Shown piece by piece: positions 6,160 through 64,000 of a DNA stretch of 64,000 nt. Numbering within the stretch: position 1 is the first letter of the stretch; each line of letters opens with the position of its first letter. Location of the stretch: NCBI GenBank assembly GCA_024679065.1, contig JAGIQG010000009.1, forward strand, positions 30,566,001-30,630,000, written 5' to 3'. A model generated the notes under the pieces. It had not been told where the DNA came from. It searched no databases and saw only the letters and a program-made list of their open reading frames with translations. The translations under genes were made by a program, and so were the position numbers. This DNA is from Sphyrna mokarran (lineage: Eukaryota).

Positions 6160-6308
6160 GCTCATGGGCTCCAGAGCAATTTACAAATCAGATCCAAAAC
6201 TCACCTGACGAAGGGGCAGAGCCCCAAAAGCTTGTGGCATTTGCTACCAAATGAATCTGTTGGACTTTAACAATTTTTTTCTCTCTGAAAGTTGTGAGAC
6301 TTCTTACT
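6160..6308 (+). mobile_element. Penelope pseudo-LTR fragment with inactivated hammerhead
   Basis: TCAC-CTGACGA-AGGGGC-AGA-GCCCC-AAAA-GC-TT-GTG at 6201-6236 (GAAA has become AAAA), then ctgttggactttaa...gttgtgagacttcttact. Confidence 0.7.
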
Positions 6309-6309
6309 T

Positions 6310-7480
6310 TGTGGCAGAAGGCAGAGAGTGATGGTCACAGACTGTTTTTGTGACTGGAAGCTTGTGTCAGGTAGTGTATTGCAGGTGCTGAGTCCCTTGC
6401 TGTTCGTGGTGTACATTAATGATCTGGATGTGAACATGGGAGATATTACCACTATGATGTGTGATAAATAGCATGGGGGCAAGCCCTAAATTACAGGATG
6501 ATATAGAAAGGCTGGTCAGATGGCAGAACAATAGTAAATGAAATTTAACTCTGAAAAATGTGAGCTGATGTATTTTGGAAAAACTAACAACCATGCAAAT
6601 ATACAATGAATGGTAAAATGCTAGGAAGCACAGAGAACGAGAGGGACCTTGGAAATGTATGTCCAGAGATCCCTGAATGCAGCAGGACAGGGTAGATAAG
6701 GTGATAAGAAGACTTGTGAAGTACTTGCCTTTATTAGCATGGTATAGAATATAAGGGCAGAGAGGTTATGATGGACCTGTATAAAATGCTCGTTAAGTCA
6801 CAGTGATGGAATTATGTATAGTTCTGGTCATCACGCTTTAGAAAGGATGTGATTGCTCTAGGGATGGTGCAGAGGAAATTCACCAGGATGTTGCTCGACA
6901 TATTTCAACAATGAAGAGAGGCTGGATAGGCTGGTACTGTTTTCCTTAGAGCAAAGAAGACTGATGAAGGGACATGATTGAGGTGGACAAAATTATGAGA
7001 GACATGGGCCGGAATTCTTCAGCCATTCATGCCGCACCAAGCTGCTAGTGTGGACAGAGAACTTGATGCTCAGGCAAATCCCTATAAACTGTAGCGGAAC
7101 CAGAGAATCCGGCTGGTGTGAATGGCTGAAGAATTCCAGCTATGGATAGGGTAGATAGAAAGGAACATTTCCCCAAAATAAAGGGATCAATAGTGAGGGG
7201 GGCATAGATTTAAGGCAAAGGACAGGAGATTAAAAAAAGGTTTGAGGAAAATCTTTTTCACCCAGAGAGTAGTGGGAATCTAAAAACCACTGCTTGAAAG
7301 GATGGAAGAGGCAGGAACCCTCACAACATCTAAGAAGCATTTATATGAGTACTTGAAATATCATAGCATAAAAGGCTATGGAGCAAGTGCTGGAAAATGG
7401 GATAATAATAAATAAGTGCTTGATGGCTGGTGTAGACACGGGCCAAATGATTTCATTTTGTGTTACAAAACTCTATGAAA
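6310..7480 (+). mobile_element. CR1 LINE RT/3' fragment, degenerate, containing a MITE
   Basis: VL.PLLFVVYINDLD, MKFNSEKCE, QRKFTRML and FFTQRVVGI remnants. Confidence 0.85.
7007..7141. mobile_element. Harbinger-type MITE
   Basis: Terminal inverted repeats gccggaattcttcagccattca / tgaatggctgaagaattccagc. It interrupts the CR1 sequence at gagacat|...|atggataggg. Confidence 0.8.
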
Positions 7481-8791: not shown

Positions 8792-8992
8792 TAAAACAAT
8801 ACTTCATTCTTAAAGTTATAAAGTCAAAACTCAGAATGGACTGGGCAAACCCAACTCCATCCCCTTACTTGTTCAAAAACCTAAATTCAAATTCCAAGTG
8901 AATCCAAATCATGGTCTCTTCAAGAGATACAAACAAGGTCCAAGTTGATAAGATAAGGCATTGCACCTCATCTTGGGCTTGATCTGATGATA
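8792..8992 (-). mobile_element. U2 snRNA-derived retroposon, 5'-truncated copy 1
   Basis: Direct repeat of 9009-9210. Minus strand ggtttttgaacaag..ggggatggagttgggtttgcccagtccattc aligns to U2 GGATTTTTGGAGCAGGGAGATGGAATAGGAGCTTGCTCCGTCCACTC. Confidence 0.65.
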
Positions 8993-9008
8993 TTAGCTAT
9001 CACGGAAT

Positions 9009-9242
9009 TTTTCTTTTTTTTTTATTGCATCCTTAAAGTTACAAAGCCAATGCTCAGAGTAGACCTGGCAAACCCAAATCCATTCCTTATTTGCTTCAAA
9101 AACAAAATTTAAATTCCAATTGGATCCCATTCATGGGTCCCACAAGGGAGACAAACGAGATCCAAGCTGACAAGATAAGGCATTGCACCTCATCTTTGGC
9201 CTGATCTGGTGCTTGATCTGAGCCAAAAAGCCAATAAGTCTT
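9009..9242 (-). mobile_element. U2 snRNA-derived retroposon (SINEU-like), near full-length copy 2 with poly(A) tail
   Basis: 9212-9238 matches the U2 5' end at 23/27 nt. The body is collinear with U2 to about nt 158, has an A-rich tail, and is flanked by TTAGCTAYCACGGAAT at 8993-9008 and 9243-9258. Confidence 0.75.
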
Positions 9243-13465: not shown

Positions 13466-13760
13466 ACATAGAACGTTACAGCACAGAACAGGCCCTTCGG
13501 CCTTCGATGTTGTGCCGACCAAAATAAAAAGCAATGCCCCTCCAAACTAAACCATTCCCTTCTCTTCCATATACTTATCAATTAACCTCTTAAACGCCAC
13601 CAAACTTGGTGCATCTACAACAGCTGCAGGCAGGGCATTCCACTCACTAATCACTCTTTGAGTAAAGAACCTACCTCTGATATCCGTCCTATAACTCATA
13701 CCCCTTAATTTAAAGCTGTGTCCCCTCGTGCTAGCTTTCTCCATCCTAGGAAAAAGGCTA
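13466..13760 (-). mobile_element. Young CR1/HER1 3' end
   Basis: ORF 13547..13744 (TRGHSFKLRG..RGRFFTQRV..WNALP); near-identical to 41230-41528. Confidence 0.92.
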
Positions 13761-14804
13761 TGTCAGAAGTAGGGAAGATGCTAGAACCTGTGAAAAGAAT
13801 GTGCTAAGTGGACATTTGGATAATAATGGTCTGATTGAACATAGCTAATGAGGATTCATGAATGGGAAATCATGCTTGACTAACCTGTTGGAGGTTTTTT
13901 GAGGATGTTACTAACAAAATTAATAAAGGGGAGTCAGTAGTCATTGTGTACGTTAGACTTTCAATAAAGTAAAGCATGTGTCTTGTTTTTATAATGCAGT
14001 ACAATTGACACCATATATTGTGAATTAGCTTTATTAATAACACATTTTAATAATGTGAATAGACAACTGTAAGCCATTTGCAGCCTTGTTACAACTTTCT
14101 CTAGCATGTGCTTTCTGACCTTCGACCCAATAGGTAAGGTGACCACATGTAATAGTGTACTGTATTGTACATATGGAGTTCACAGCCACAAGCAATTATT
14201 GTCATGACACCCAGGATCGAGGATAAAATACCGGTACGGATTAGAGGCTGATTAACAGGTAGAAAACAGGGTAGGAAGAAAGGAGTCATTTTCACATTGG
14301 CAGACTATAATGAGTGGAGTACTGCAAGGGTGAGGACTCGGAGCCCTGCACAATGTGTGTAAATGATTTGGATGTGGAGACCAAATGTAATATTTCTGAC
14401 TTATTGGATGATACAAAGTTGGGTGGGAATGTACGTTGTGAGGAAGATGCAAAGTGGATTCAGGGGGATTTGGACAAACTCGGTTGTTGTGCTGCTGGAG
14501 CACATCAGAGGTGCACTCCACCTCTATATTTAAACGTTTTAATATTCACCGCTGGAAGTTTATTTCTGTGACAGACTCTAAGGAACTTTCAAAGTCAGGA
14601 TTAAGGAGTTTGAAGCACAGGAATTACATTTCCCAGCTTATCTCAGGAATTTCTTGTACATGCTGCAGAGACCGGGCTGTGATTGCACAGTTACTGTTTC
14701 GTAATTCTTCAGACTGAGACGCGACTCTGCACACAGGCACAAAGCAAAAGGAAGTGAAACAATGTGGAGTTACAGGTCAGGTGACCTGAATATCTTTTTT
14801 TTGT

Positions 14805-17331: not shown

Positions 17332-18935
17332 TGTTACCCTGTCAGATACTTGCCCAGTTATCTAAATGAGATCTGACCAAGTATAAGCTCAGGATATTAA
17401 TGCTTGTGTATTGTTAATAGCTGTACCCATGCACGATGGGGAGGGAAGAGAGGGGGCTAGAATCAAACTTTCAAAACTACCTGATAACGATACAACAACC
17501 TCTATGGTCTTTAAGCAGTGATCCTTCACGAACAAGGTAACTGGACCAGAATTTAAAGGTGAGAACTTTGGCTAACCGGGAGAGAGGACATACATCCCTG
17601 GGGCTGGAAGTTGGCAGGGTGAGCTGGGGAGTCGTTAGGAGCAGACTTGTGGTGTCGCATTGCAAATCCTTTAATTGTAAATAGTTCCTCCTTGCTGAAT
17701 AAAACTTATTGTTTTATATTTGCCATACTGAGTTGTCTGAGTTACCACACTGGTAACAAGGGCAAACCAGATTATTTGTTGAAAGCCCCCACTGCAGAGT
17801 TAGAGAGGGGAAAGAGAAGGATCACTCAAAGTTTGAAGAAAAAAGGGTACCTTCTCCATTGCTGTTATTTGGGAAAATAGTTTCATTTGATCCTGTAGTT
17901 GAGAGTTCAGGGCAGTACATTGAGAGAGTATAATGTTTCTGTAACAAAATAAATAACTGAGGTGAAACATAAAATGATACTGATCACAATCTGCAGCCCA
18001 CAGATTTATAATCTGGTGAGGAATTTGACATCACCCAAAGCACCAGACACAAAAACCTTCAACCAGTTGGTCAATTTAATTAAGGATCACTATAACCCTT
18101 GACCATCCATTATCATGCAGAGGTACAAATTCCACTCTGCTGTTTGGGGTTTAGGAAAGATGGTCTCTGGATTCACAACCAGGCTTTGAATGGCTGGCTG
18201 GTGCACTGCAAGTTCAGGCCTTCATTAGGAATCATGTTCAGTTTGTGGCATCAGCAATCTCAACATCCAAAAGAAACTGCCGAAACTAACAGTTCACCGG
18301 AAAAAGTACGAGAGCATGTGCAAGCTGCAAGGTCTACAGAGTGAGGGCATGTGCCAGTTGCAAAGTGTGCAGAGTGACGGCAAGTGCAAGCTGCAAGGTG
18401 TGCAGAGTGAGGATGTGTGCAAGCTGCAAGGTGTGCAGAGTGAGGACGTGTGCAAGCTGCAAAGTGTGCAGGGTGAGGGTGTGTGCAAGCTGCAAAGTGT
18501 GCAGAGTGAGGGCGTGTGCAAGCTGCAAGGTGTGCAGAGTGAGGGCGTGTGCAAGCTGCAAGGTGTGCAGAGTGAGGGCGTGTGCAAGCTGCAAGGTGTG
18601 CAGAGTGAGGGTGTGTGCAAGCTGCAAAGTGTGCAGAGTGAGGGTGTGTGCAAGCTGCAAAGTGTGCAGAGTGAGGGCGTGTGCAGGCTGCAAGGTGTGC
18701 AGAGTGAAGGCGTGTGCAAGCTGCAAGGTGTGCAGAGTGAGGGTGTGTGCAAGCTGCAAGGTGTGCAGGATGAGCTGAACGAGTCAGACTGGGAAATGAC
18801 TGCTCTTGGAGGCAGCACTGAATGAAGGTGCAGTGGAGCCCAAGAACAGAGAATAATCATTCAACACCAGGGTCCGAAGCATGTTTTCTGATGTGGGGCA
18901 GATCACAACCCTTGTGAATAAGCTGCGGTGGAACC
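17332..18935 (+). mobile_element. Ty3/Gypsy Mag-clade LTR retrotransposon 5' part (LTR, PBS, decayed gag)
   Basis: LTR TGTTA(17332)...AATAAA(17698)...CCACA(17749). PBS-like TGGTAACAAG at 17751 (consistent with CpG-decayed TGGCGACGAG). gag: FGKIVSFDP...QYIERV...IYNLVRNLTSPKAPDTKTFNQLVNLIKDHYNP..SIIMQRYKFH, with a knuckle remnant CF*CGADH near 18885. Confidence 0.8.
18316..18770 (+). repeat. 33-bp minisatellite, about 14 units
   Basis: Unit GTGTGCAAGCTGCAA(G/A)GTGTGCAGAGTGAGGG(C/T); it accounts for the four overlapping repetitive ORFs. Confidence 0.97.
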
Positions 18936-22184: not shown

Positions 22185-22624
22185 CTTTGAAAAAGCAAGA
22201 TAATGCAGAACACAACACAATGAGAAGCTAATGGGATTGACCCATATGCTGTAGATACCAAAGGGTTGGAAATCTCGGATGTTGTAAGATTGAAACGTCT
22301 TGAGAAGTCTCAACACTTCACAAATCTCAAAAGAAAGCAGTGAAAACATCCACCAAGTTCTAGTATAAGCGCGTACCAAACTCTTAATATGGCCTATCAA
22401 CTCAGCCTACTTCATTTTGTCCTACTCTTGGATGACATATTGGCAAAAATGGATTGGCTGCCTGCTCATGTTGCCTATCGACCAACCATAAAAACATATT
22501 GGTAACAAATTCAGGTTAACTGTATTTAAATCAATTAAATTGCCTTCCTCATTGTCAGATGGTACTTGTGCAAGTGCACAATGATGTTCTGGGTGCTGTT
22601 TTCTTGTGTCACCTCACACACTTC

Positions 22625-22815
22625 TCCTCTGTGCCTGTTGAGCACCACAGGGGCTGGGGTGCATTATCGGCCCCTTCAATCACATTTTGATTTAATGTTT
22701 TGAGTTTTCTTTTTATCTTGTTCTTTCTTTCAGGCAGTTCCCCTTCATTTGGGAGCTATCCTTTTTAATTTGTCCTTTCGTTAATTTGATTTAGTATATT
22801 TGGATGGTCAAAAAG
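22625..22815 (+). mobile_element. Tx1-clade LINE 3' end, same family as the 46.5-47.0 kb units
   Basis: APQGLGCIIGPFNHILI* followed by a UTR ending ttaatttg...tttggatggtcaaaaaga. Confidence 0.7.
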
Positions 22816-23569
22816 ATTGATTTCGCATACTTTACCTTGAAGGTAAATTCTGGCCAGAGATTGTTTGAAACAATGATTGAGACGATGTTTGAGAGTGAGA
22901 GGAGATACCAACCAATATATTTGTGGAGGTTTCCCATGATCTGCAGATCACCCTGGAGACAATGGCACCTGGGGATTTCTGTGATTCCAAGACATCAAGA
23001 AAAGCTTCCAAAAACATTGCAGGTTCAGGTGAAAGTCTTTCTTGTTTCCAAAACCCAGTCAGGTCTATTTAGTTTGTGAAGGCATCAATCAATCGCACAT
23101 TTGATCTTGGTATTAGTGTGCTTCAAGGTTCAGATGCAGATGTCATCATTTTCTGTAAGGCCTTCTCCAATAATGATGTAGTAGGGGTTCAGATATAGAC
23201 TTGATACAGTATTTCTTGCCAAAGCAACAGGCAGATTGTTGGAAAATAGTCACTGTGCCAAAACAGCTTCCCTGAGATGATAGTCACCTCAGGGAATGCT
23301 CCAGAAACACACCGCCACTACCTGATGCTCAACTGAATCTCACCGAGGCTTAACCTCATTTGCCAGGCAAATGATAGAAATAATAGAACAAGCAAGTAAG
23401 TAGGAAACTAAGGGAAATACGGAAAGAACAATACATAGGATGATTATAATTTTTCAGATTTCTTGGTGAGTCTTGGTCAAGCAAGTGAATGCAAATTATG
23501 TACAATTGCATTAGGAATTAATTTCTATCTGTGCTTTCTACCTTAAGGCTGTGGATAATGACAAGCACA

Positions 23570-35575: not shown

Positions 35576-37732
35576 TTAAATCAGTTTTCTATACCCCTCC
35601 ATTCCCATTCTGTTCATGTGCCCGTCTAAGTATTTCTTAAATAACTCCAGAGTACCTGCCTCCACCACTTTACTTGGCAGTGCATTCCATACCCCCACCA
35701 CCCTCTGTGTGAAAAAACTCCCTCTAGCATCCAAATTATACCTTACCCCACTCACCCTAAGCCCGTGACCCCTCGTGCTATTTGAGTCCATCCTAGGAAA
35801 AAGCTTAACCCTGTTTACTCTATCTATCCCCTTCAAAATCTTGTACACCTCTATCAGATCTCCTCTAAGTCTACGTCTTCCTAAGGAAAACAGTCCCAAT
35901 TTGCCTAATCTCTCCTCGTAACTCAGACCTTCCATACCAGGCAGCATCCCGGTAAACCTCCTCTGCACTCTCTCCAGAGTCTCCACGTCCTTCCGGTAGT
36001 AAGGCGACCAGAACTGGACACAGTATTCCAAATGAGGTCTAACCAGCGATTTATACAACTGCAACATTAAAGGCCAGCTCTTGTACTCTATACCCCTTCC
36101 TATAAAGGCTAGCATACCATATGCTTTCTTCAGAACCTTCTCCACCTGCTCTGCCACCTTCAGAGACTTGTTCACCTGTACCCCCAGGTCCCTCTGCGTT
36201 TCTATACTCTTAATAGGTCTACTCTTTATCATATACCTCCCCTCTACATTCTTTCTCCCGAAATGCATCACCTCACATTTATCAGGATTGAATTCCATCT
36301 GCCATCTGTCTGCCCAAGCTACCGGCCTATCTATGTCCTGCTGCATCGCCTGACAATGCTCCTCACTATCCGCAAGTCCAGCCATCTTTGTATCGTCTGC
36401 AAACTTGCTGATCACGCCACTTACTCCCTCTTCCAAGTCATTTATATATATTACAAATAGAAGAGGTCCCAGTACCGAGCCCTGCGGCACACCACTAGTG
36501 ACCAACCTCCAGCTAAAGAAACACCCTTCCACTATTACTCTCTTTCTCCTATTACCAAGCCAGTTAGTTATCCATCTAGCTACCTGTCCTTGTATCCCAT
36601 TTGCCTTGACCTTCTCGACTAACCTCCCATGAGGGACTTTGTCAAACGCCTTACTAAAATTCATATAGACGACATCAACGGCTCGCCCTTCGTCCACCGT
36701 TTTTGTCACCTCCTCAAAAAATTCTACCAGATTTGTAAGGCACGACGTCCCCTTAACAAATCCATGCTGCGTATCCCTAATCAGATTGCAACGCTCTAAG
36801 TGCCTATACATCCTATCTCTAAGAATCACCTCCAACAGCTTCCCCACCACTGACGTCAAACTCACCGGCCTATAATTTCTGGGGTTATCCCTACCACCCT
36901 TTTTAAACAACAGTACAAGATTAGCTATTCTCCAGTCCTCTGGGACCTCACCTGTGTCCAAGGAAGAGTCAAAGATTTGCGTCACAGGCCCAGCAATTTC
37001 ACCTTGCACCTCTCTAAGCAGTCTGGGATAAATGCCATCAGGTCCTGGAGATTTATCAGTTTTAATGCTACCTAGAAGCTCTAACACTTCCTCCTTCGGT
37101 ATGGATATTTCCCTCAACTGGTCCACAGCTCCCTCAGAGACAGGAGCTGTCAACAAGCCCCTCTCCTTCGTGAATACCGACGCAAAGTATTCATTCAGGA
37201 TCTCCGCCATTTCCTCGGGCTCTAAGCACAGTTTCCCTCCTCTGTCCCTAAGAGGTCCGATTTTTCCTCTAACCACCCTTTTATTCCTAATATAGGAGTA
37301 AAAAGCCTTTGGGCTTTCCTTAATCCTATCCACCAAAATCATTTCATGCTCCCTTTTTGCCCTTCTAACTCCCTGTTTGAGCTTCCTCCTACTCTCTCTA
37401 TATTCCTTCAATGCTGTCTCGGTTCCCAGCTGCTTCGACCTATCATACGCTTCTCTTTTCTTCCTAACCAAGTCCTCAATATCCCTAGTAATCCACAGCT
37501 CTCTAATCCTACCTTTCCCATCTTTCCTCTTGGCTGGCACGTACTTATCTTGCAACATTTTCAGCATTCCCTTGAAAGAATCCCACATGCCTAGCGTGGA
37601 CTTACCCTCAAACAACCGTTCCCAATCAGTTTCCCTAAGTTCCTGCCTAATTCGACCATAGTTAGCCTTCCCCCAATTCAGCACCCTGCCCCTAGGGCAA
37701 CAAGCATCCTTTTCCACCTGTAGCTGTATCAT
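35576..37732 (-). CDS. CR1 LINE ORF2 (5'-truncated; RT domain and C-terminus, 718 aa open)
   Basis: KSPGPDGIYP, NYRPVSLTS, QHGF, YMNFSKAFDKVPH, GVPQGSVLGP, KFADD, VRPHLEYCVQFW. The endonuclease domain is missing. Confidence 0.95.
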   Translation of the reverse strand: MIQLQVEKDACCPRGRVLNWGKANYGRIRQELRETDWERLFEGKSTLGMWDSFKGMLKMLQDKYVPAKRKDGKGRIRELWITRDIEDLVRKKREAYDRSKQLGTETALKEYRESRRKLKQGVRRAKREHEMILVDRIKESPKAFYSYIRNKRVVRGKIGPLRDRGGKLCLEPEEMAEILNEYFASVFTKERGLLTAPVSEGAVDQLREISIPKEEVLELLGSIKTDKSPGPDGIYPRLLREVQGEIAGPVTQIFDSSLDTGEVPEDWRIANLVLLFKKGGRDNPRNYRPVSLTSVVGKLLEVILRDRMYRHLERCNLIRDTQHGFVKGTSCLTNLVEFFEEVTKTVDEGRAVDVVYMNFSKAFDKVPHGRLVEKVKANGIQGQVARWITNWLGNRRKRVIVEGCFFSWRLVTSGVPQGSVLGPLLFVIYINDLEEGVSGVISKFADDTKMAGLADSEEHCQAMQQDIDRPVAWADRWQMEFNPDKCEVMHFGRKNVEGRYMIKSRPIKSIETQRDLGVQVNKSLKVAEQVEKVLKKAYGMLAFIGRGIEYKSWPLMLQLYKSLVRPHLEYCVQFWSPYYRKDVETLERVQRRFTGMLPGMEGLSYEERLGKLGLFSLGRRRLRGDLIEVYKILKGIDRVNRVKLFPRMDSNSTRGHGLRVSGVRYNLDARGSFFTQRVVGVWNALPSKVVEAGTLELFKKYLDGHMNRMGMEGYRKLI

Positions 37733-38174
37733 CTGTAGCTATTTTCCATCATTAGCTGTAGTATTCCTAGCCTCTGAGCTGCTCTTGTAGCCACTGTGTT
37801 TATGTGGTGAGTCTAGTTGGGTTTCTAGTCAATGGTAATCCCAGGGTGTTGATAATGGGGGATTCAGTGATGGTAACATTATTGAATGTCAAGGAGCAGT
37901 CGTTAGAGTGTCTCTTATTGGCGATGGTGATTGCTTGGCATTTGTGTGGCACAAATGTTACTTTACTACTTGTCAGCCCAAGCCTGGACATTGTACAGAT
38001 CTTGTTACATTTGAACATGGACTGCTTCAATGTCTGAGGTGTCGCGAGTGAATACTGAGCAATCGTCGGCGAACTTCCCCACTTCTGACCTTATGATGGA
38101 GGAAAGGTCATTGATGAAGCAGCTGAAGATTGTTGGACCTAGGGCACAACTCTGAGGGACTCAGGCTAGTGTTC

Positions 38175-39034: not shown

Positions 39035-41580
39035 AGTATAAAGTGAAAAGTATTGTTTCTTGCATGCTGTACAGACAAAGCATAACATTTATAGAAAAGG
39101 AAATGTGAGAGTGCAGAAAGTAGTGTTACAATCATAGTTAAAGTGTAGAGAAAGATCAACTTAATGCAAGGTAGGTCCGTTCAGAGGTTTGACAGCAGCA
39201 GGGAAGAAGCTGTTCTTGAGTCAGTTGATGCTTGACCTCAAGCTTTTGTATCTTTTTCCTGATGGAAGAAGGTGGAAGAGAGAATGGGGTTGATGGTGTC
39301 CTTAATTATTCTGGTTGCTTTGCCGAGGCAGTAGAACGTGTAGACAGAGTCAATAGGTGGGAGGCTGGTTTGCATGATGAATTGGGCTACATTCACAACC
39401 TTTTATAGTTCCTTGCAGTCTTGGGCACAGCAGGAGCCATACCAAGCTGTGATACAACCTGAAAGAATTATTTCTATGGTGCAGTTGTAAAAGTTGGTGA
39501 GAGTCGTAACTGACATGCCAAATTTCCTTAGTCTTCTGAGAAAGTAGAGGCATTGGTAGGCTTTCTTAACTATAGTGTTGACATGGGGGGCCAGGATAGG
39601 TTGTTGGTGATCTGGATACCTGAAAGCTTAAAGCTCTCGACTCTTTCTACTTCATCCCCATTGATGTAGACAGGGTTATGTTCTCCTCTACGCTTTCTGA
39701 AGTCGATGACAATCTCCTTCATTTTGTTGACATTAAGGCAGAGATTATTGTCGCCGCATCAGTCCATCAGATTCTCTATCTCATTCCTATGCTCTGTCTT
39801 GTCATTGTTTGAGATCTGTCCCATTATGGTGGTATTTTCAACAAACTTGAAAATCGAATTAGAGGGGAATTTGGCCACACAGTCATAGGTGGATAAGGAG
39901 TACAAAAGAGGGCTGAGATCAGATCCTTGTGGGGTACTTTTGTTGAGGATGATTGTGGAGGAGGTGTTGTTGCCTATCCTTACTGATTGTGGTCCATGAG
40001 TTAGGAAGTTCTGGATCCAGTCGCAGAGGGAGATGCTGAGGCCCAGACCATAGAATTTGGAGATGAGTTTCATGGAAATAATGGTGTTGAAGGCTGAGCT
40101 GTAGTCAATAAATAGGAATCTGACATCGGTGTTTTTGTTATTTAGGTGTTCCAGGATTGAGATGGTGTATGCTGTGAACCTGATGCAGCGGTAGGCAAAC
40201 TGTAATGGGTCCAAGTAGTCAGGGAGGCTGTAATTGATTGGTGCTATGACTAGGCTTTCAAAGCACTTCATAATGATGGATGTCAGAGCCACCAGCTAAT
40301 AGTCATTAAAGCATGCTGCTTGGTTTTTCTTAGATACCAGGATGATGGACATCTTTTTAAACTCTGATTGTTGTAAAGAGAGGTTGAAAATATGTGCAAC
40401 TACTCCAGCCAGCTGATCTGTGCAGGATGTGAGTGCTTGTCTGGATACCCAATCAGGGCCAGTCATTTTCTGTGGTTGACCTTCCAGAAAAGTGCTCTGC
40501 AATGGTAACCCCAGATACAGGTTCATCCAGTGCTCCCTGGATGGAAGACATGCTCTTGTTGGCTTCTTGTTCAAAATGGGCGTAGAATGCATTGAGCTCA
40601 TCAGGGAGAGATGCATTGAATTCGGCGATTTTACATGCCTTCACCTTGTAACCTGTTATGTCTTGCAGACCTTACCGTAGTTGACAGGGGTCTGTATAAC
40701 TAACCTGGGACTCTAACTTAGTCCGGTACTGTCTTTCAGCATCTTTGATGGATCTCCTTAGATCATATCTGGCTTTCTTATACAGTTCAGAGTCACCTGA
40801 CTTGAAAGCCTCAGACCTGGACTTCAGCAAGCAGTGGATATCTGCTTGCTGAATCTCAATCCATCTCAATCCACTAGGCAGTCAAGTGGATAAAGTTGTT
40901 AAGAAGGCTTATGGAGTCTTAGCTTTTATTGGTAGGGGGATTGAATTTAGGAGCCGCAGCATCATGTTGCAGCTGTACAAAACTCTAGTGCGGCCGCACT
41001 TGGAGTATTGTGTGCAGTTCTGGTCGCCACATTATAAGAAAGATGTGGAGGCATTGGAGAGGGTACAGAGGAGGTTTACTAGGATGTTGCCTGGTATGGA
41101 GGGCAGGTCCTATGAAGAGAGGTTGAAGGATTTGAGGTTGTTTTCGTTAGAAAGGAGGCGGCTAAGGGGGATCTTATTGAAACATATAAGATAATTAGAG
41201 GTTTGGATAGGGTGGACAGTGATAGCCTTTTTCCTAGGATGGAGAAAGCTAGCACGAGGGGACACAGCTTTAAATTAAGGGGTATGAGTTATAGGACGGA
41301 TATCAGAGGTAGGTTCTTTACTCAAAGAGTGATTAGGGAGTGGAATGCCCTGCCTGCAGCTGTTGTAGATGCGCCAAGTTTGGTGGCGTTTAAGAGGTTA
41401 GTTGATAAGTATATGGATGAGAAGGGAATGGTTTAGTTAGGAGGGGCATTGCTTTTTATTTTGGTCGGCACAACATCGAAGGCCGAAGGGCCTGTTCTGT
41501 GCTGTATTGTTCTATGTTCTATGTTCTATCTCTGTTCATCCATAGTTTCCAGTTGGGGAACACATGGATTTGCTTCTTTG
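39035..41580 (-). mobile_element. Rex1/Babar LINE, 5'-truncated and decayed, split by CR1 at 40875-41528
   Basis: [91 protein letters not shown] lies beyond the CR1. Confidence 0.9.
40875..41528 (+). mobile_element. Young CR1/HER1 3' end
   Basis: ORFs 40886..41194 and 41203..41436 (one frameshift); tail (GTTCTAT)n. Confidence 0.95.
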
Positions 41581-44967: not shown

Positions 44968-45093
44968 GGGTGGGATTCTCCAGCTGTGTTGTCCCAAAAC
45001 TGGAGAATTCCATCTAAGATCAATGGACCTTTGCATGGTCTGTCCCCCACCCACTACAATTCCAATGGTGAGTGGGATGGGAGAATCCATCCC
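44968..45093. mobile_element. Harbinger-type MITE
   Basis: gggtgggattctcc / ggagaatccatccc; a related copy in opposite orientation lies at 45471-45613. Confidence 0.7.
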
Positions 45094-45100
45094 AAATGTC

Positions 45101-45441
45101 TGGAGTAAGTCTTCGGAGGCAAAATTCCTACACCAAAATCCATTTGTTAACAAGTCTAACAACAGCATACAGTGTGCTTTCAGTTAGTAGTCTACAATAG
45201 GAGTCCCAGAGGGACTGGCACTCCTGATTAAATGATGTGGAGAGGCCGGTGTTGGACTGGGGTAAGCACAGTAAGAAGTCTGACAACACCTTGTTTAAGT
45301 CCAACTGATTTATTTGATAGTAAATTGACTCCTGATTAAATACAAAGCATGAGCTCCCTGATGAGACCATCAATTTGGCTCTTAATCAGGGAGTTCATAT
45401 TCTAACAGGCCAACCTCAATTTCTTGATTATAGTCATTACA
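45101..45441 (-). mobile_element. Gypsy-type solo LTR carrying a 94-bp Penelope-end insertion
   Basis: TG...ATTACA, flanks ATGTC/ATGCC; homologous to 46337-47020. Confidence 0.6.
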
Positions 45442-45470
45442 ATGCCTCAAAAATGTGAAAAAAAGAGATT

Positions 45471-45613
45471 TGGGCCAGAATTCTCCTGTGTTGCCAACCA
45501 TGGAAATCGTAACTGGGGGGGAGCGGGGGGGGTTGGAGGGAATATACAAAAGTCCATTGACCATGGGTAGGACTTTCCGGCTTTGTGGCGAGTGCGGCCA
45601 AAGAATCCCACCC
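45471..45613. mobile_element. Harbinger-type MITE
   Basis: gggccagaattctcc / aagaatcccaccc. Confidence 0.7.
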
Positions 45614-45797
45614 TGGTTTTTAGCTGCTGCAGAATGGAGAAGTTCGATTCAAAATGTTAAAATTAATTATTTTAAATAAATGATTATTTTTTATGCTTCT
45701 TTGGTACTCTTTTTTTTCTAACTGGATCCTGAAGGGCTGTTTTAACTTATATCATGTTTTGCGTTGTCCCTGTCAGAAGCTCTGGGTTCAAGTCCCA

Positions 45798-45875: not shown

Positions 45876-46336
45876 ATGCCGGCATTTCCACTTCAAGTCC
45901 CACCCCAGGAAGATTCATTCTTGTGCAGTCAATGTCATTATGAATTGAATTGAATTGTATTGATTTATCAATGTCACATGTATTGGGATACAATGAAAAC
46001 TATTGATTCTTGCAAACTATACAGACAAAAGAGTACATGGAGGAGAAACAAAGGAGAGCATGTAGAATGTAATAATGCATATCAATGGTTGGTGTTAAAC
46101 GCCATGGTTGTTAAGAGCTGGTTAGTCATGGAATGAAAGTTGGAGTCTCTATCATCATTATCCATAGTCATTTAGAACATTGTTTAGGTTTGACCTATCT
46201 TGGAATATCAGATGGGCCAGTCAGACAATCATTCTAAACTGTTTGTTTTAGCATTAAATTTGTGACAATGTAGGTAACTAAGGATTAGCTCTGAGCATTT
46301 TGTACTATTGTGAACAACTAGATTTATCTGAATGCC

Positions 46337-47020
46337 TGTAATAACCCCATGGAGGCAAAAGCCCCATCACCAAGTTACTTTATTTACACCACATATCTGT
46401 ACAGAGCCAGCTCTTCAGTTGCTCTCAGTTGAATGCAAGCTGAAAGGCTGACACACCTGCTTTAAGTAGGGAGCATGAGACTCCCTGAGTTACCCATCAA
46501 TTAGGACTCATTGTTTTCATACCAACCAAATAAACAAACTCAAATTAACTTAGGGAGGACTCATCGGGTATCTGTTTTGACATCAATTAAACAAACTCAA
46601 ATTAACTTAGGGACAAATTAAAAGGGCAGCTCCCCAAAAGGAAAAGGGGAACAGCTCGAACAAAAAACAAAGTTGAAAGGAAACTTATAACATTAAATCA
46701 AGAGTAATTCTTAGGGCTGATAACGCAACCCTAGGACTCATCAGGTATCTCTTTTGACACAAACCAAATAAACAAACACCAATTAACTTAGGAACAAATT
46801 AAAGGGGGCAGCTCCCCAAAAGGAAGGGGGAACAGCTCAAACAAAAAAACAAAGTCAAAAGAAGGTTTAAAGCATTAAGTCAAAAGGTGATTATCAGGTT
46901 TGGTAATGCACCCCAGCTCCTGTGGTGTCCAGCGGGCGTGTGAAGGTGGACAGCACAGAACTCATCAGGTAGTTCATACCCTAGAAAGTCAACCTTATTA
47001 GTCTGGATGAAGTCATCACA
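46337..47020 (-). mobile_element. Gypsy-type solo LTR hosting the Tx1 tandem array
   Basis: TGTAAT...ATCACA, flanks ATGCC/GTGCC, minus-strand AATAAA near 46380. The uninterrupted homologue of the target is at 45370-45400. Confidence 0.7.
46512..46956 (-). mobile_element. Three tandem 5'-truncated Tx1-clade 3' ends (about 44, 162 and 209 bp)
   Basis: Longest unit encodes HARWTPQELGCITKPDNHLLT*. Units are separated by variants of AGGACTCATCAGGTA (46556-70, 46733-47, 46957-71; partial at 46503-11). Confidence 0.8.
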
Positions 47021-48584
47021 GTGCCATAGAAGAGACCATAACTGAAGGGACAATACTGTTATGATAAAATTCCCATCAAGGTCAAAACAGCAACTTGTCA
47101 ATTAAGGTGATTACTCTTATTTGGCAACTCAATGATTCAACTTTATCATTCAGAATTGGATAAGATGTCAAAGAACAACTCTTTTTCCCCAGCTGAGGAT
47201 GGCATACTAAAACAGAGAGCTCTTGTGCTCCAGCCTGCCAGGGAGGCTGAGAGATTTCAAGTTAATATATGAAGACACACACAGCCTGTAGAGAGGTGAG
47301 TGCCCAGTTTCCATTGAGCTTTTCTATCAGACAGACAGAGTGAATTGTAAATTTGTTTATGGTTTAAAGAGAAATAGGAAATGGATGTAGCTTTGTGGAA
47401 AGAAAATATGAGTTGTACATTCACATATTCTGTGTAAAACAAACCAGTTGGTTGATTTTTAATAGATCTTGTCCTTCTAGGGTGTTATTGAGTCTGACTT
47501 CAGATAAAAACAGAACATTGCAATACATAAGAAATCGCAATATCTCAGAATAAGCATGAGATCCATTGTTACAAACCCTGGGTAATGTTATAATTTAACT
47601 AGATACTGGGTAACAAATGTACACCAGATCATGGGGAACGTGTGGCCTGCTTATGGGAGTGGCTGATGTTGCTGAAGCTGAGAGAACACCTATTGCAGAC
47701 TTCTGGAATTTAGAACAGCTGCCTCTGCAGGCAATCTGTGTACATGCGTTTGACGCAGCTAGTGTGATTTGTCAATGTGTTATGTAGTGCACACAGGGGA
47801 TGGGAAGCCTGTGCGAAGCAGATGCCTGGCTAATTCAACTTCAAAAGCAAATCCTGCGGTTTCCCACAAGAGGAGGACTAGCTTCCACCTTTACCCGATA
47901 ATTTAAGAAAATGTACACATCAACATGAATAATGCAGCAAAATGCACCAACTCTCAGGAGAAGAGACACGGACTCAGACCGTGGGAGTCACTAAATGTAG
48001 GGAACACCAACTACCGGCTGACACAGCAGCATAATGATTTCTATTCACAGAATGTTCTCTCTCCATGCTTCTGCAGCTGTCTTTTGCTATTCCTTGCAGC
48101 CAATGAATTCCAAGCATTCTGCTTTAAAATTTGAAGCCTTGCTTTATTAATTCTCAATCTGCAGAGAATTAATTGTGAGAAAACTCTAAATGCCAAAAAA
48201 AACTGTCTATCAGTAAACTATATTTAAAAATCAAGTTTTGCCACTCAGATTTCCTTCCTAATTAATTTTCTTTTCAGCATTGCCTCTCCAGGATCACATT
48301 TTTTAATGTAAAACACAAGATAATTCTGATGTCAAAAGTGATGGGTATTTGAGAGCATTACAAACACTAATCCAATCTCATGTCTGAATGATATACACCA
48401 CATGAGCTTTCTCTTGCTGCTGACACCTTTGCTGGATAGCCATCTTGAGACTCACTCGCACTCAATCAACCTACAGTACATACATAACTACTATCTACAT
48501 TTCCTTGTATTCCACCATCACAGAAAGTTGGCATTTCAAATGCAGATTGATTACTTTCTTTGCATTCACTTCGTGCATTATTAA

Positions 48585-62750: not shown

Positions 62751-62754
62751 CTCA

Positions 62755-64000
62755 AAGAACAAAGAACAAAACAGTAAGGGAAACAGGCCCTTCGGCCAAT
62801 GAACCCGCGCTGCCACCTCGATATTCCCACTTCTACCCATGATCCCTGTCTATGTTTGTAGAGCTATGCATTGGAACCAAATTTGCAGGACAATTTAGGG
62901 AAAATTTATTCTGCCAATCAGCCTAAGAGCACATCTTTGGGGTGTGGGAGGAAACCGGAGCCCCTGGAGAAAACCCACGCAAACACGGGGAGAACATGCA
63001 AACTCCCACAGACACAGGCCCAAATCCATGTATCTGCACAGCACAGCAATAGTCACTGAGCTGTCGTGTTGCCCATCAAATGGTCCAAGTCGAGTTTGCA
63101 CTAACGATGTGAACTCTCAAAAAATCCAAGAAAGCCATCACACAACCCATCGCGTGTATGCCCCTTGTTACACAACAAGGTGGACCGAAGTATCTGTAGT
63201 ATAAAACAGAAATACATTAATATCATCAACAATTTACACACTTCCCAGGGAACTCCCAAGGCTCATGATCCCTATTTTAAATCAGTTTTCTATATCCCTC
63301 CATTCCCATTCTGTTCATGTGCCCATCTAAGTATCTCTTAAATAACTCCAGAATGCCTGCCCCCACCACTTTACTTGGCAGCGCGTTCCATACTCTCACC
63401 ACCCTCTGTGTGAAAAAACTCCCTCTAGCATCCAAATTATACCTTACCCCCCTCACCCTAAGCCCGTGACCCCTCATGATATTTGAGTCCATCCTAGGAA
63501 AAAGCTATCTATACCCCTCATTATCTTGTACACCTCTATCAGATCTCCTCTAAATCTATGTCTTTCTAAGGAAAACAGCCCAATTTGCCTAACCTCTCCT
63601 CGTAACTCAGACCTTCCATACCAGGCAACATCTTGGTAAACCTCCTCTGCACTCTGTCCAGAGTCTTCACGTCCTTCCATTAGTAAGGCGACCAGCACTG
63701 GATGTAGTATTCCAAATGAGGTCTAACCAGCATTCTATACAACTGCAACATTCAAGGCCAGCTCTTGTACTCTCTGCTCCTTCCTATAAAGGCTGGCATA
63801 CCATATGCTTTCTTCACAACCTTCTCCACCTACTCTGCCACTTTCAGAGACTTGTGCACCTGCACTCCCATGTCCCTTTGTGTTTCTATACTCTTAATAG
63901 GTCTACCCTTTATCATATACCTCCCCCCTAAATTCTTTCTCCTGAAATGCATCACCTCGCATTTATCAGGATTGAATTCCATCTGCCATCTGTCTGCCCA
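62755..64000 (-). mobile_element. CR1 LINE with V-SINE-containing 3' UTR (runs off window end)
   Basis: Paralogous to 35040-36317; C-terminus ...YLDGHMNRMGMEGYRKLI*; several frameshifts. Confidence 0.93.

What the first reader, a model, noticed from the sequence alone, without database searches (positions are those of the whole stretch)
46503..46971. Three Tx1 insertions stacked at one 15-bp site that mimics U1 snRNA, inside another transposon's LTR
Seen: three 3' ends of one Tx1-type LINE, truncated at three different 5' points (about 44, 162 and 209 bp), each bounded by variants of AGGACTCATCAGGTA (three full copies, one partial). The related LTR at 45370-45400 has this position uninterrupted. 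On the minus strand the 3' junction reads AAAAGAGA|TACC-TGATGAG. Known: U1 snRNA has GGGGAGA-TACCATGATCAC, and Tx1-clade elements include families specific for multicopy small-RNA genes (e.g. Keno for U2). Inference: a sequence-specific, probably U1-targeting Tx1 family regenerates its target with each TSD and has repeatedly hit a near-cognate decoy in a gypsy LTR.
Basis: partly seen in the sequence, partly recalled or inferred. Interest (0 to 1): 0.8.

Follow-up and report, generated by a model that had tools for sequence, protein, structure and literature searches.

The report
Three stacked Tx1 retrotransposon insertions
Three short pieces of a site-seeking jumping gene (a Tx1 retrotransposon) landed one after another at the same 15-letter spot inside another mobile element, a habit already known from frogs, crocodilians and flies, and the proposed link to U1 small RNA does not hold up.

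Summary
The stack is real: three minus-strand, 5'-truncated 3' ends (44, 162, 209 bp) separated by copies of one 15-bp site (three full, one of 9 bp), inside a 230-bp TG…CA, LTR-like repeat. Tx1 identity is now tested: the longest unit carries an ORF2 C-terminus and stop that link through database proteins to Xenopus Tx1 ORF2 (41% identity, E 1e-138). Junction geometry and clustered divergence favour sequential target-primed insertions over local duplication; duplication is not excluded for the 44-bp unit. The U1 reading is not supported: it needs a gap, borrows the element's own tail, and 13–21% of random U1-sized pieces match as well. The site fits the published crocodilian Tx1-Mar/SINEU-3 duplication (10/15, one gap, 1.4% by chance) and U2 nt 58–72 (12/15 ungapped, 0.3%; post hoc, 20 nt from the Keno junction) better. 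Tx1 families that target other transposons, LTR elements included, and tandem copies sandwiching a target duplication are published (crocodilian Tx1-Mar; fly R1). Verdict: new member of a known kind. Genome-wide flanks could not be collected.

The parts
46337..47020 (-). Host: LTR-like repeat, 230 bp without the inserts, TG...CA ends, flanked by 5-bp repeats ATGCC (46332-46336) and GTGCC (47021-47025); looks like a solo LTR
   Evidence: AATAAA 48 nt before its 3' end (46379-46384); Gypsy class is recalled, not tested
46957..46971 (-). Site copy a (14/15); the only copy that keeps the host's upstream context
46748..46956 (-). Unit 3, 209 bp: last ~26 codons of Tx1 ORF2, stop at 46877-46875, 127-nt 3' UTR ending AAAAGAGA
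   Evidence: 14/19 identity to the C-terminus of P0006, E 4e-6 within the window; UTR folds at z -3.35
46733..46747 (-). Site copy b (15/15)
46571..46732 (-). Unit 2, 162 bp: last ~40 nt of ORF2 (1-nt gap), stop at 46695-46693, 3' UTR with a 4-nt gap
46556..46570 (-). Site copy c (14/15)
46512..46555 (-). Unit 1, 44 bp: end of the 3' UTR only
46503..46511 (-). Site copy d, 9 bp (the 6 bp next to unit 1 are missing: shifted nick or later deletion)
45101..45441 (-). Related LTR-like repeat, 59% identical, uninterrupted at the homologous site; 5-bp flanks ATGTC/ATGCC; holds an unrelated 94-bp insert
22615..22816 (+). Dispersed, more distant Tx1 3' end (ORF2 tail, stop 22693-22695, UTR ending AAAAAGA); flank unlike the site except TGAT; no duplication found

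Best explanation
A Tx1-clade non-LTR retrotransposon with a sequence-selective APE-type endonuclease nicked one site in an LTR-like repeat, primed reverse transcription there, and cut the second strand 14-15 bp downstream, so each 5'-truncated insertion duplicated the site. The copy on the element's 5' side keeps the host's upstream bases and was hit again, twice, so the stack grew from unit 1 (oldest) to unit 3 (youngest), with units 2 and 3 coming from different source copies. The site is most simply the family's own preferred sequence (core CCTGAT/CTGATG) in a repetitive host, as for Tx1L in Tx1D and Tx1-Mar in Mariner-N4 and LTR elements, not a U1 decoy. Shown: structure, Tx1 identity, fixed junctions. 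Inferred: independence of the events, their order, the enzyme's specificity, and that this LTR family is the usual target.
For: Tx1: a profile of the two window peptides finds P0006 at its very C-terminus (E 9e-7 in 1.84 billion proteins); P0006 to P0009 66%; P0009 carries RVT_1 and zf-RVT matches below the Pfam cut-offs and matches Xenopus Tx1 149-kDa ORF2 at 41% over 99% (E 1.5e-138), human L1 ORF2 only at E 1e-6. Geometry: all three 5' junctions fall at the last base of the site with 1-2 nt of microhomology, at three different truncation points; two random duplication ends would both land within 2 nt of that base with chance about 9e-4 if uniform over the 166 host bases (a simple model). 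Units 2 and 3 differ at 28/161 columns, 19 in the first 59-60 and 9 in the last 101-102 (permutation p 0.007-0.02 over 5 alignment settings), as diverged source lineages with a conserved 3' hairpin region would. Precedent: tandem SINEU-3 copies sandwiching a 16-bp duplication, and Tx1-8_Crp and Tx1-4_AMi preferring LTR retrotransposons (PMC4494074); R1 tandems separated by the 14-bp duplication and formed by insertion into the 5' copy (PMC2718515). The crocodilian duplication aligns with this site at 10/15 with one gap; 277 of 20000 random window 15-mers score as well. If the first T is counted as the element's, the cut strand reads AGTT after the nick, as reported for Tx1L endonuclease (PMC1950540).
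Against: One locus only. The dispersed copy has no such flank and no duplication. The relative LTR holds a 12/15 look-alike at 45355 and its own homologous arm, neither hit. Site copies are not significantly better conserved than the units (p 0.05-0.24). With the MAFFT alignment the clustering of differences was not significant (p 0.22; that alignment shifts two homopolymer runs), and a fixed split at the stop codon gives p 0.058. Unit 1 shares the tail change AAAAC with unit 2 only. The strand on which the crocodilian duplication is printed is not stated, so the shared register is conditional. The AGTT match is 4 nt and needs a 1-nt choice.
Confidence: 0.7

Rival explanations
1. Keno-like U2 specificity that has drifted: the enzyme's ancestral or main target is a U2 snRNA gene and the LTR site is a near-cognate.
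For: U2 nt 58-72 as printed in S1 Fig of PMC4640811 matches the site at 12/15 without a gap on the insert strand (counted by eye); 0.3% of about 4000 random 187-nt pieces do as well. Tx1-Mar clusters with Keno. Keno's junction lies in a similar TAYCTG hexamer. Crocodilian Utopia shows that U2 specificity can relax to U2-like sites.
Against: The match lies 20 nt downstream of Keno's junction (nt 38/39); the 10 nt upstream agree at 2 positions (by eye). Post hoc: expected 0.025 for 1 kb and 0.07 for 3 kb of small RNAs on both strands. No U2 gene in the window.
Confidence: 0.1
2. One reading: a U1-targeting Tx1 hitting a decoy.
Against: The tail is not target DNA (host reads GAAC there); the target-only match is at chance level (13-21%); units 1 and 2 end AAAAC(A/AGA), not GAGA; no U1 match in Rfam scans.
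Confidence: 0.06
3. One insertion followed by local tandem duplication of pieces ending at the site (most plausible for unit 1 from unit 2), or later gene conversion between units.
For: A duplication running from inside a unit to the end of the site gives the same picture. Unit 1 equals unit 2 over its first 25 nt and differs at 4/40; they share AAAAC against unit 3 and the dispersed copy. Site conservation does not reject it.
Against: Both breakpoints must fall on the last base of the site with 1-2 nt of homology (about 9e-4 under a uniform model); units 2 and 3 differ by 17% in a clustered way; unit 1 keeps 4 nt that unit 2 lacks; the other states shared by units 1 and 2 are also in the dispersed copy, so probably ancestral.
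Confidence: 0.09
4. The stack was built elsewhere and copied here in one step, as a read-through (3'-transduced) cDNA or inside a mobilised LTR copy.
For: Cannot be excluded from one window; read-through transcription is usual for site-specific LINEs (discussed).
Against: Inner site copies b and c match this host's own site, which the relative LTR does not share.
Confidence: 0.05

Closest known systems
Tx1-Mar / SINEU-3, Tx1-8_Crp and Tx1-4_AMi (crocodilians; PMC4494074)
   Same: Tx1 clade; target inside another transposon, LTR elements included; 16-bp duplication similar to this 15-bp site; tandem copies sandwiching a duplication read as sequential insertions
   Different: Here autonomous-type 3' ends with ORF2 tail, not SINEs; host is a short LTR-like repeat; phylogenetic membership untested; their LTR target sites are in supplements that could not be read
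Tx1L of Xenopus laevis in Tx1D
   Same: Closest named protein in the chain (41% to P0009); targets another transposon; AGTT after the nick possible here too
   Different: Different host (piggyBac-type DNA transposon); ORF2 C-terminus longer and diverged
Keno (U2 snRNA-specific Tx1)
   Same: Clade; TAYCTG near the junction; site resembles another part of U2
   Different: Keno's 3' flank starts at U2 nt 39 and continues as U2; the flank here is LTR sequence
R1 tandem arrays of Drosophila (PMC2718515; 10.1101/158386)
   Same: APE-type site-specific LINE, 14-bp duplication between head-to-tail copies, 5'-truncated members, growth by insertion into the 5' duplication
   Different: R1 clade, 28S rDNA target

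Membership tests
Tx1 clade non-LTR retrotransposon | ORF2 homologous to Xenopus Tx1 ORF2, closer than to L1 | tested here: met
   Chained: window peptide to P0006/P0008 C-terminus, to P0009, to Tx1 149-kDa protein E 1.5e-138 against L1 E 1e-6; P0008 to Tx1 42%, E 1e-26. Only about 20-26 codons are in the window.
Tx1 clade non-LTR retrotransposon | Placement by RT-domain phylogeny; APE endonuclease present | not testable with these tools
   No RT or endonuclease of this element in the window (one search finds only the CR1/L2-like ORFs)
Tx1 clade non-LTR retrotransposon | TPRT marks: fixed 3' end, variable 5' truncation, target duplication | tested here: met
   one of four site copies is short
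Tx1-Mar group | Clusters with Keno in the RT tree | not testable with these tools
   No RT sequence of the element, no Repbase sequences
Tx1-Mar group | More than 20% of flanks in one transposon family | not testable with these tools
   No genome; in the window 3 of 4 copies are in one host copy, which is not an independent sample
Tx1-Mar group | Target duplication like the published 16-mer | tested here: inconclusive
   10/15 with one gap, 1.4% by chance, strand of the printed motif unknown
Keno | 3' flank is U2 from nt 39 | tested here: not met
   Flank differs from the printed Keno flank; no U2 in the window
U1-targeting element (proposed) | Target matches U1 beyond chance or copies lie in U1 genes | tested here: not met
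   Chance-level match; no U1 in the window; genome-wide part untested
Solo LTR (host) | TG...CA ends, 4-6-bp flanking duplication, poly(A) signal | tested here: met
   flanks agree at 4 of 5 in both relatives; AATAAA in the host
Gypsy superfamily (host) | Linked internal region with PBS, PPT and Gypsy-order pol | not testable with these tools
   No internal region next to either copy; the label is recalled by both readers and comes from no call

The most novel reading that the evidence does not exclude
Keno, crocodilian Tx1-Mar and this family share one old endonuclease preference (nick 2-3 nt before CTGAT, 14-16-bp stagger) that derives from U2 recognition and now reads U2-like boxes inside unrelated transposons; this family would be a dedicated LTR parasite whose target is one arm of the LTR's inverted CCTGAT repeat, or, less likely, a Tx1 that uses a second site in U2 (nt 58) or a site in U1, for which no non-LTR element turned up in the papers searched.
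Probability: 0.15. Interest if true: 0.6.

Novelty: new member of a known kind. Interest (0 to 1): 0.3.

Why it matters
It adds a cleanly readable case of a Tx1 family hitting one LTR site three times and gives an exact 14-15-bp candidate target for an APE-type endonuclease, useful for mapping how Tx1 specificity moves between small-RNA genes and transposons and for anyone looking for site-specific retrotransposon enzymes. The behaviour itself (transposon-targeting Tx1, LTR targets, tandem copies around a duplication) is published, so it does not open a new class. A U1- or second-site U2-targeting LINE would be new, but the evidence here does not favour it.

Tried and rejected
Rfam: nothing at gathering score in the window; three chance hits at E up to 10 around the site, none snRNA or hammerhead. 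Hammerhead idea (the site holds CTGATGAG, recalled as a hammerhead core): no GAAA within 63 nt downstream on that strand; dropped. The 720-aa ORF at 35576-37738 is not the source element: RVT_1 protein only 22% to Tx1. Word-index protein search with the 41-aa read-through found no candidate; Pfam found nothing in the two short peptides. Of the 3 hits of the profile search, P0007 is a repetitive protein matched in four stretches and P0005 (16 stretches) was not examined; only P0006 was used. Of the 3 hits, P0010 is a repetitive mis-prediction and P0012 covers 9% of the query. Two scans of bacterial and archaeal genomes for stray copies with flanks: 0 of 177 and 1 of 62 candidates confirmed; that one (L001) is a 37-aa match in an unrelated bacterial locus with no RT frame and was dropped. 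The two LTR-like copies are not a segmental duplication: flanks score as shuffles. Consensus folding of three UTRs gave no real covariation (term 0.01). Divergence of site copies against units was not significant. The cluster look-up for P0006 and a language-model look-alike search could not be made; the Tx1L endonuclease paper (PMC85248) is not held.

Full report
Observation. The stack is as described. On the minus strand the order is host 5' part, site a (46971-46957), unit 3 (209 bp), site b, unit 2 (162 bp), site c, unit 1 (44 bp), site d (9 bp, 46511-46503), host 3' part. Sites a and c each differ from b at one base. The motif count at three mismatches is not unusual (4 against 2.19 expected), but three copies within one mismatch sit exactly at unit boundaries. 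A profile of the units finds 4 copies in the window, these three and one at 22615-22815. The 3' junctions are not identical: unit 3 ends AAAAGAGA, unit 2 AAAACAGA, unit 1 AAAACA followed by the short site.

Host. Without the inserts the host is 230 bp (46337-47020), begins TG and ends CA, has AATAAA 48 nt before its 3' end on the minus strand, and is flanked by ATGCC and GTGCC. A relative at 45101-45441 is 59% identical (133/224; score 122.5 against at most 39 in shuffles) with flanks ATGTC and ATGCC, and is uninterrupted at the site. Their outer flanks are unrelated. This fits two solo LTRs. 'Gypsy' is recalled from the look of such repeats, as is my impression that the window is from a cartilaginous fish; neither comes from a call. 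In the relative the site is one arm of a 14-bp inverted repeat (45349-45362 and 45385-45398); only one arm in one copy was hit.

Identity of the inserts. Unit 3 and the dispersed copy begin with the last codons and the stop of an ORF. A profile of these two peptides, run against 1.84 billion proteins, gave 3 hits; the one non-repetitive hit, P0006, matches with its last 20 residues (E 9e-7), and tblastn back to the window recovers unit 3 (14/19) and the dispersed copy (15/21) at E 4e-6. P0006 finds P0008 (87%) and P0009 (66%). P0009 has weak RVT_1 and zf-RVT matches and matches the Xenopus 'Transposon TX1 149 kDa protein' at 41% over 99% of its length (E 1.5e-138), human L1 ORF2 only at about 1e-6. 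So the units are 3' ends of a Tx1-clade LINE with a 3' UTR of about 125 nt. The UTR of unit 3 folds better than all 200 shuffles (z -3.35), unit 2 at z -1.83, the dispersed copy at z -0.33; a GTTCCCC/GGGAGC hairpin is in all three, without real covariation.

Independent insertions or duplication. A duplication from inside a unit to the end of the site would give the same layout, so I tested it. All three 5' junctions fall on the last base of the site, with 2 nt (unit 2) and 1 nt (unit 1) of microhomology; under uniform breakpoints the chance for two is about 9e-4, while a fixed second-strand cut gives this directly. Units 2 and 3 differ at 28 of 161 columns, 19 in the first 59-60 and 9 in the rest (p 0.0075; 0.007-0.02 over five settings). 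Against: the MAFFT alignment, which shifts two homopolymer runs, gave p 0.22, a fixed split at the stop p 0.058, and the site copies are not significantly better kept than the units (p 0.05-0.24). Unit 1 differs from unit 2 at 4/40 and from unit 3 at 7/44; it shares one possibly derived state with unit 2 and keeps 4 nt that unit 2 lost. Independence is likely for units 2 and 3 and less sure for unit 1.

Order (inferred). Only site a keeps the host's upstream bases (TATGAAC); the others have the element's tail there. In fly R1, tandems grow by insertion into the duplication at the 5' end of the resident copy (PMC2718515, passages). The same rule gives unit 1 first and unit 3 last, which agrees with unit 3 having the best-kept frame and fold and site d being the most damaged. 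This is weak support.

What the site resembles. Target-only agreement is 9 of 11 with a gap, and 12.9% (same strand) or 21.4% (either) of about 1500 random 164-nt pieces of the window hold such a match. U2: nt 58-72 of the human gene printed in S1 Fig of PMC4640811 agree at 12/15 without gap, on the insert strand; 0.3% of random 187-nt pieces do as well, and 0.025-0.07 hits are expected over 1-3 kb of small RNAs. It is post hoc, 20 nt from the Keno junction at nt 38/39, and the upstream 10 nt agree at 2. Tx1-Mar: the 16-bp duplication printed for SINEU-3 in Mariner-N4_AMi aligns with the plus-strand site at 10/15 with one gap; 277 of 20000 random 15-mers reach that score. If it is printed on the Mariner strand, where these insertions are reversed, the nick falls 3 nt before CTGATG in both; the paper does not state the strand. 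Tx1L: its endonuclease nick is followed by AGTT (PMC1950540, passages); the cut strand here reads the same if the junction T is the element's, which the dispersed copy's end allows. Each of these is a lead, none a proof.

Known precedent. PMC4494074 (main text read in full, parts 1-4 of 5; supplements not available, and Figs S3, S4, S6 bear directly on target sites) reports Tx1-Mar, clustering with Keno, inserted in Mariner-N4_AMi, Tx1-8_Crp and Tx1-4_AMi inserted in specific LTR retrotransposons, and tandem SINEU-3 copies sandwiching a duplication read as sequential insertions. PMC4640811 (passages, section 6, parts of S1 and S4 Figs) lists, as of 2015, Keno and Utopia for U2 and the DNA transposons Dada-U1 and Dada-U6, and notes tandem Utopia copies. 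10.1101/158386 (passages) uses distinct 5' truncations around a duplication as the mark of double insertion. PMC6136364 (passages) gives the Keno flank. PMC8869645, PMC3747384 and PMC4176376 (passages) added nothing on this family. Kojima and Fujiwara 2004 and Christensen 2000 were not seen. Searches for a U1-targeting Tx1 or for this family in sharks (listings, with the papers above opened) showed no such report, but Repbase Reports and subscription journals are not in the library, so the family may already be catalogued.

Verdict. A genuine triple, site-specific Tx1 insertion in an LTR-like repeat; the mechanism and the kind of target are known from other animals. The U1 decoy story is not supported. 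The family's real genome-wide preference is open because only this window was available: the one dispersed copy has a different flank, and two scans of prokaryotic genomes for stray copies gave nothing usable. Interest 0.3; new member of a known kind.

Noticed in passing
window 46332-46336 / 47021-47025 and 45096-45100 / 45442-45446: Both LTR-like copies have nearly the same 5-bp flanking repeat (ATGCC/GTGCC and ATGTC/ATGCC) although their wider flanks are unrelated; possibly a target preference of the host family.
   Followed up: partly
window 45220-45341: The relative LTR holds a 94-bp insert of another dispersed repeat (further copies near 27, 2228-2285, 2517-2570, 6239-6311, 45796) between perfect 14-bp repeats that also contain CCTGAT; recalled as Penelope-like, not tested.
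   Followed up: partly
window 45349-45398 and 46476-46490: The target is one arm of an imperfect inverted repeat of the LTR family; the mirror arm at 45355 matches the site at 12/15 and was not hit.
   Followed up: partly
window 35576-37738 (minus) and 62753-64000: Open 720-codon LINE reverse transcriptase frame (RVT_1, E 3e-30), CR1/L2-like by recall, with an 87% identical second copy at the window's end and many older fragments.
   Followed up: partly
window 18310-18768: 33-bp tandem repeat, 13.9 copies, 92% matches, open in several frames on both strands.
   Followed up: no
window 44968-45093: 126-bp element with 14-bp terminal inverted repeats (MITE-like) directly left of the relative LTR; similar ends at 45602-45621.
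   Followed up: no
window 13466-13761 and 41222-41517: Two LINE fragments 97.6% identical over 296 bp in opposite orientation, the youngest repeat pair in the window.
   Followed up: no
window 8805-9208: Local tandem duplication of 222 bp, 82% matches.
   Followed up: no
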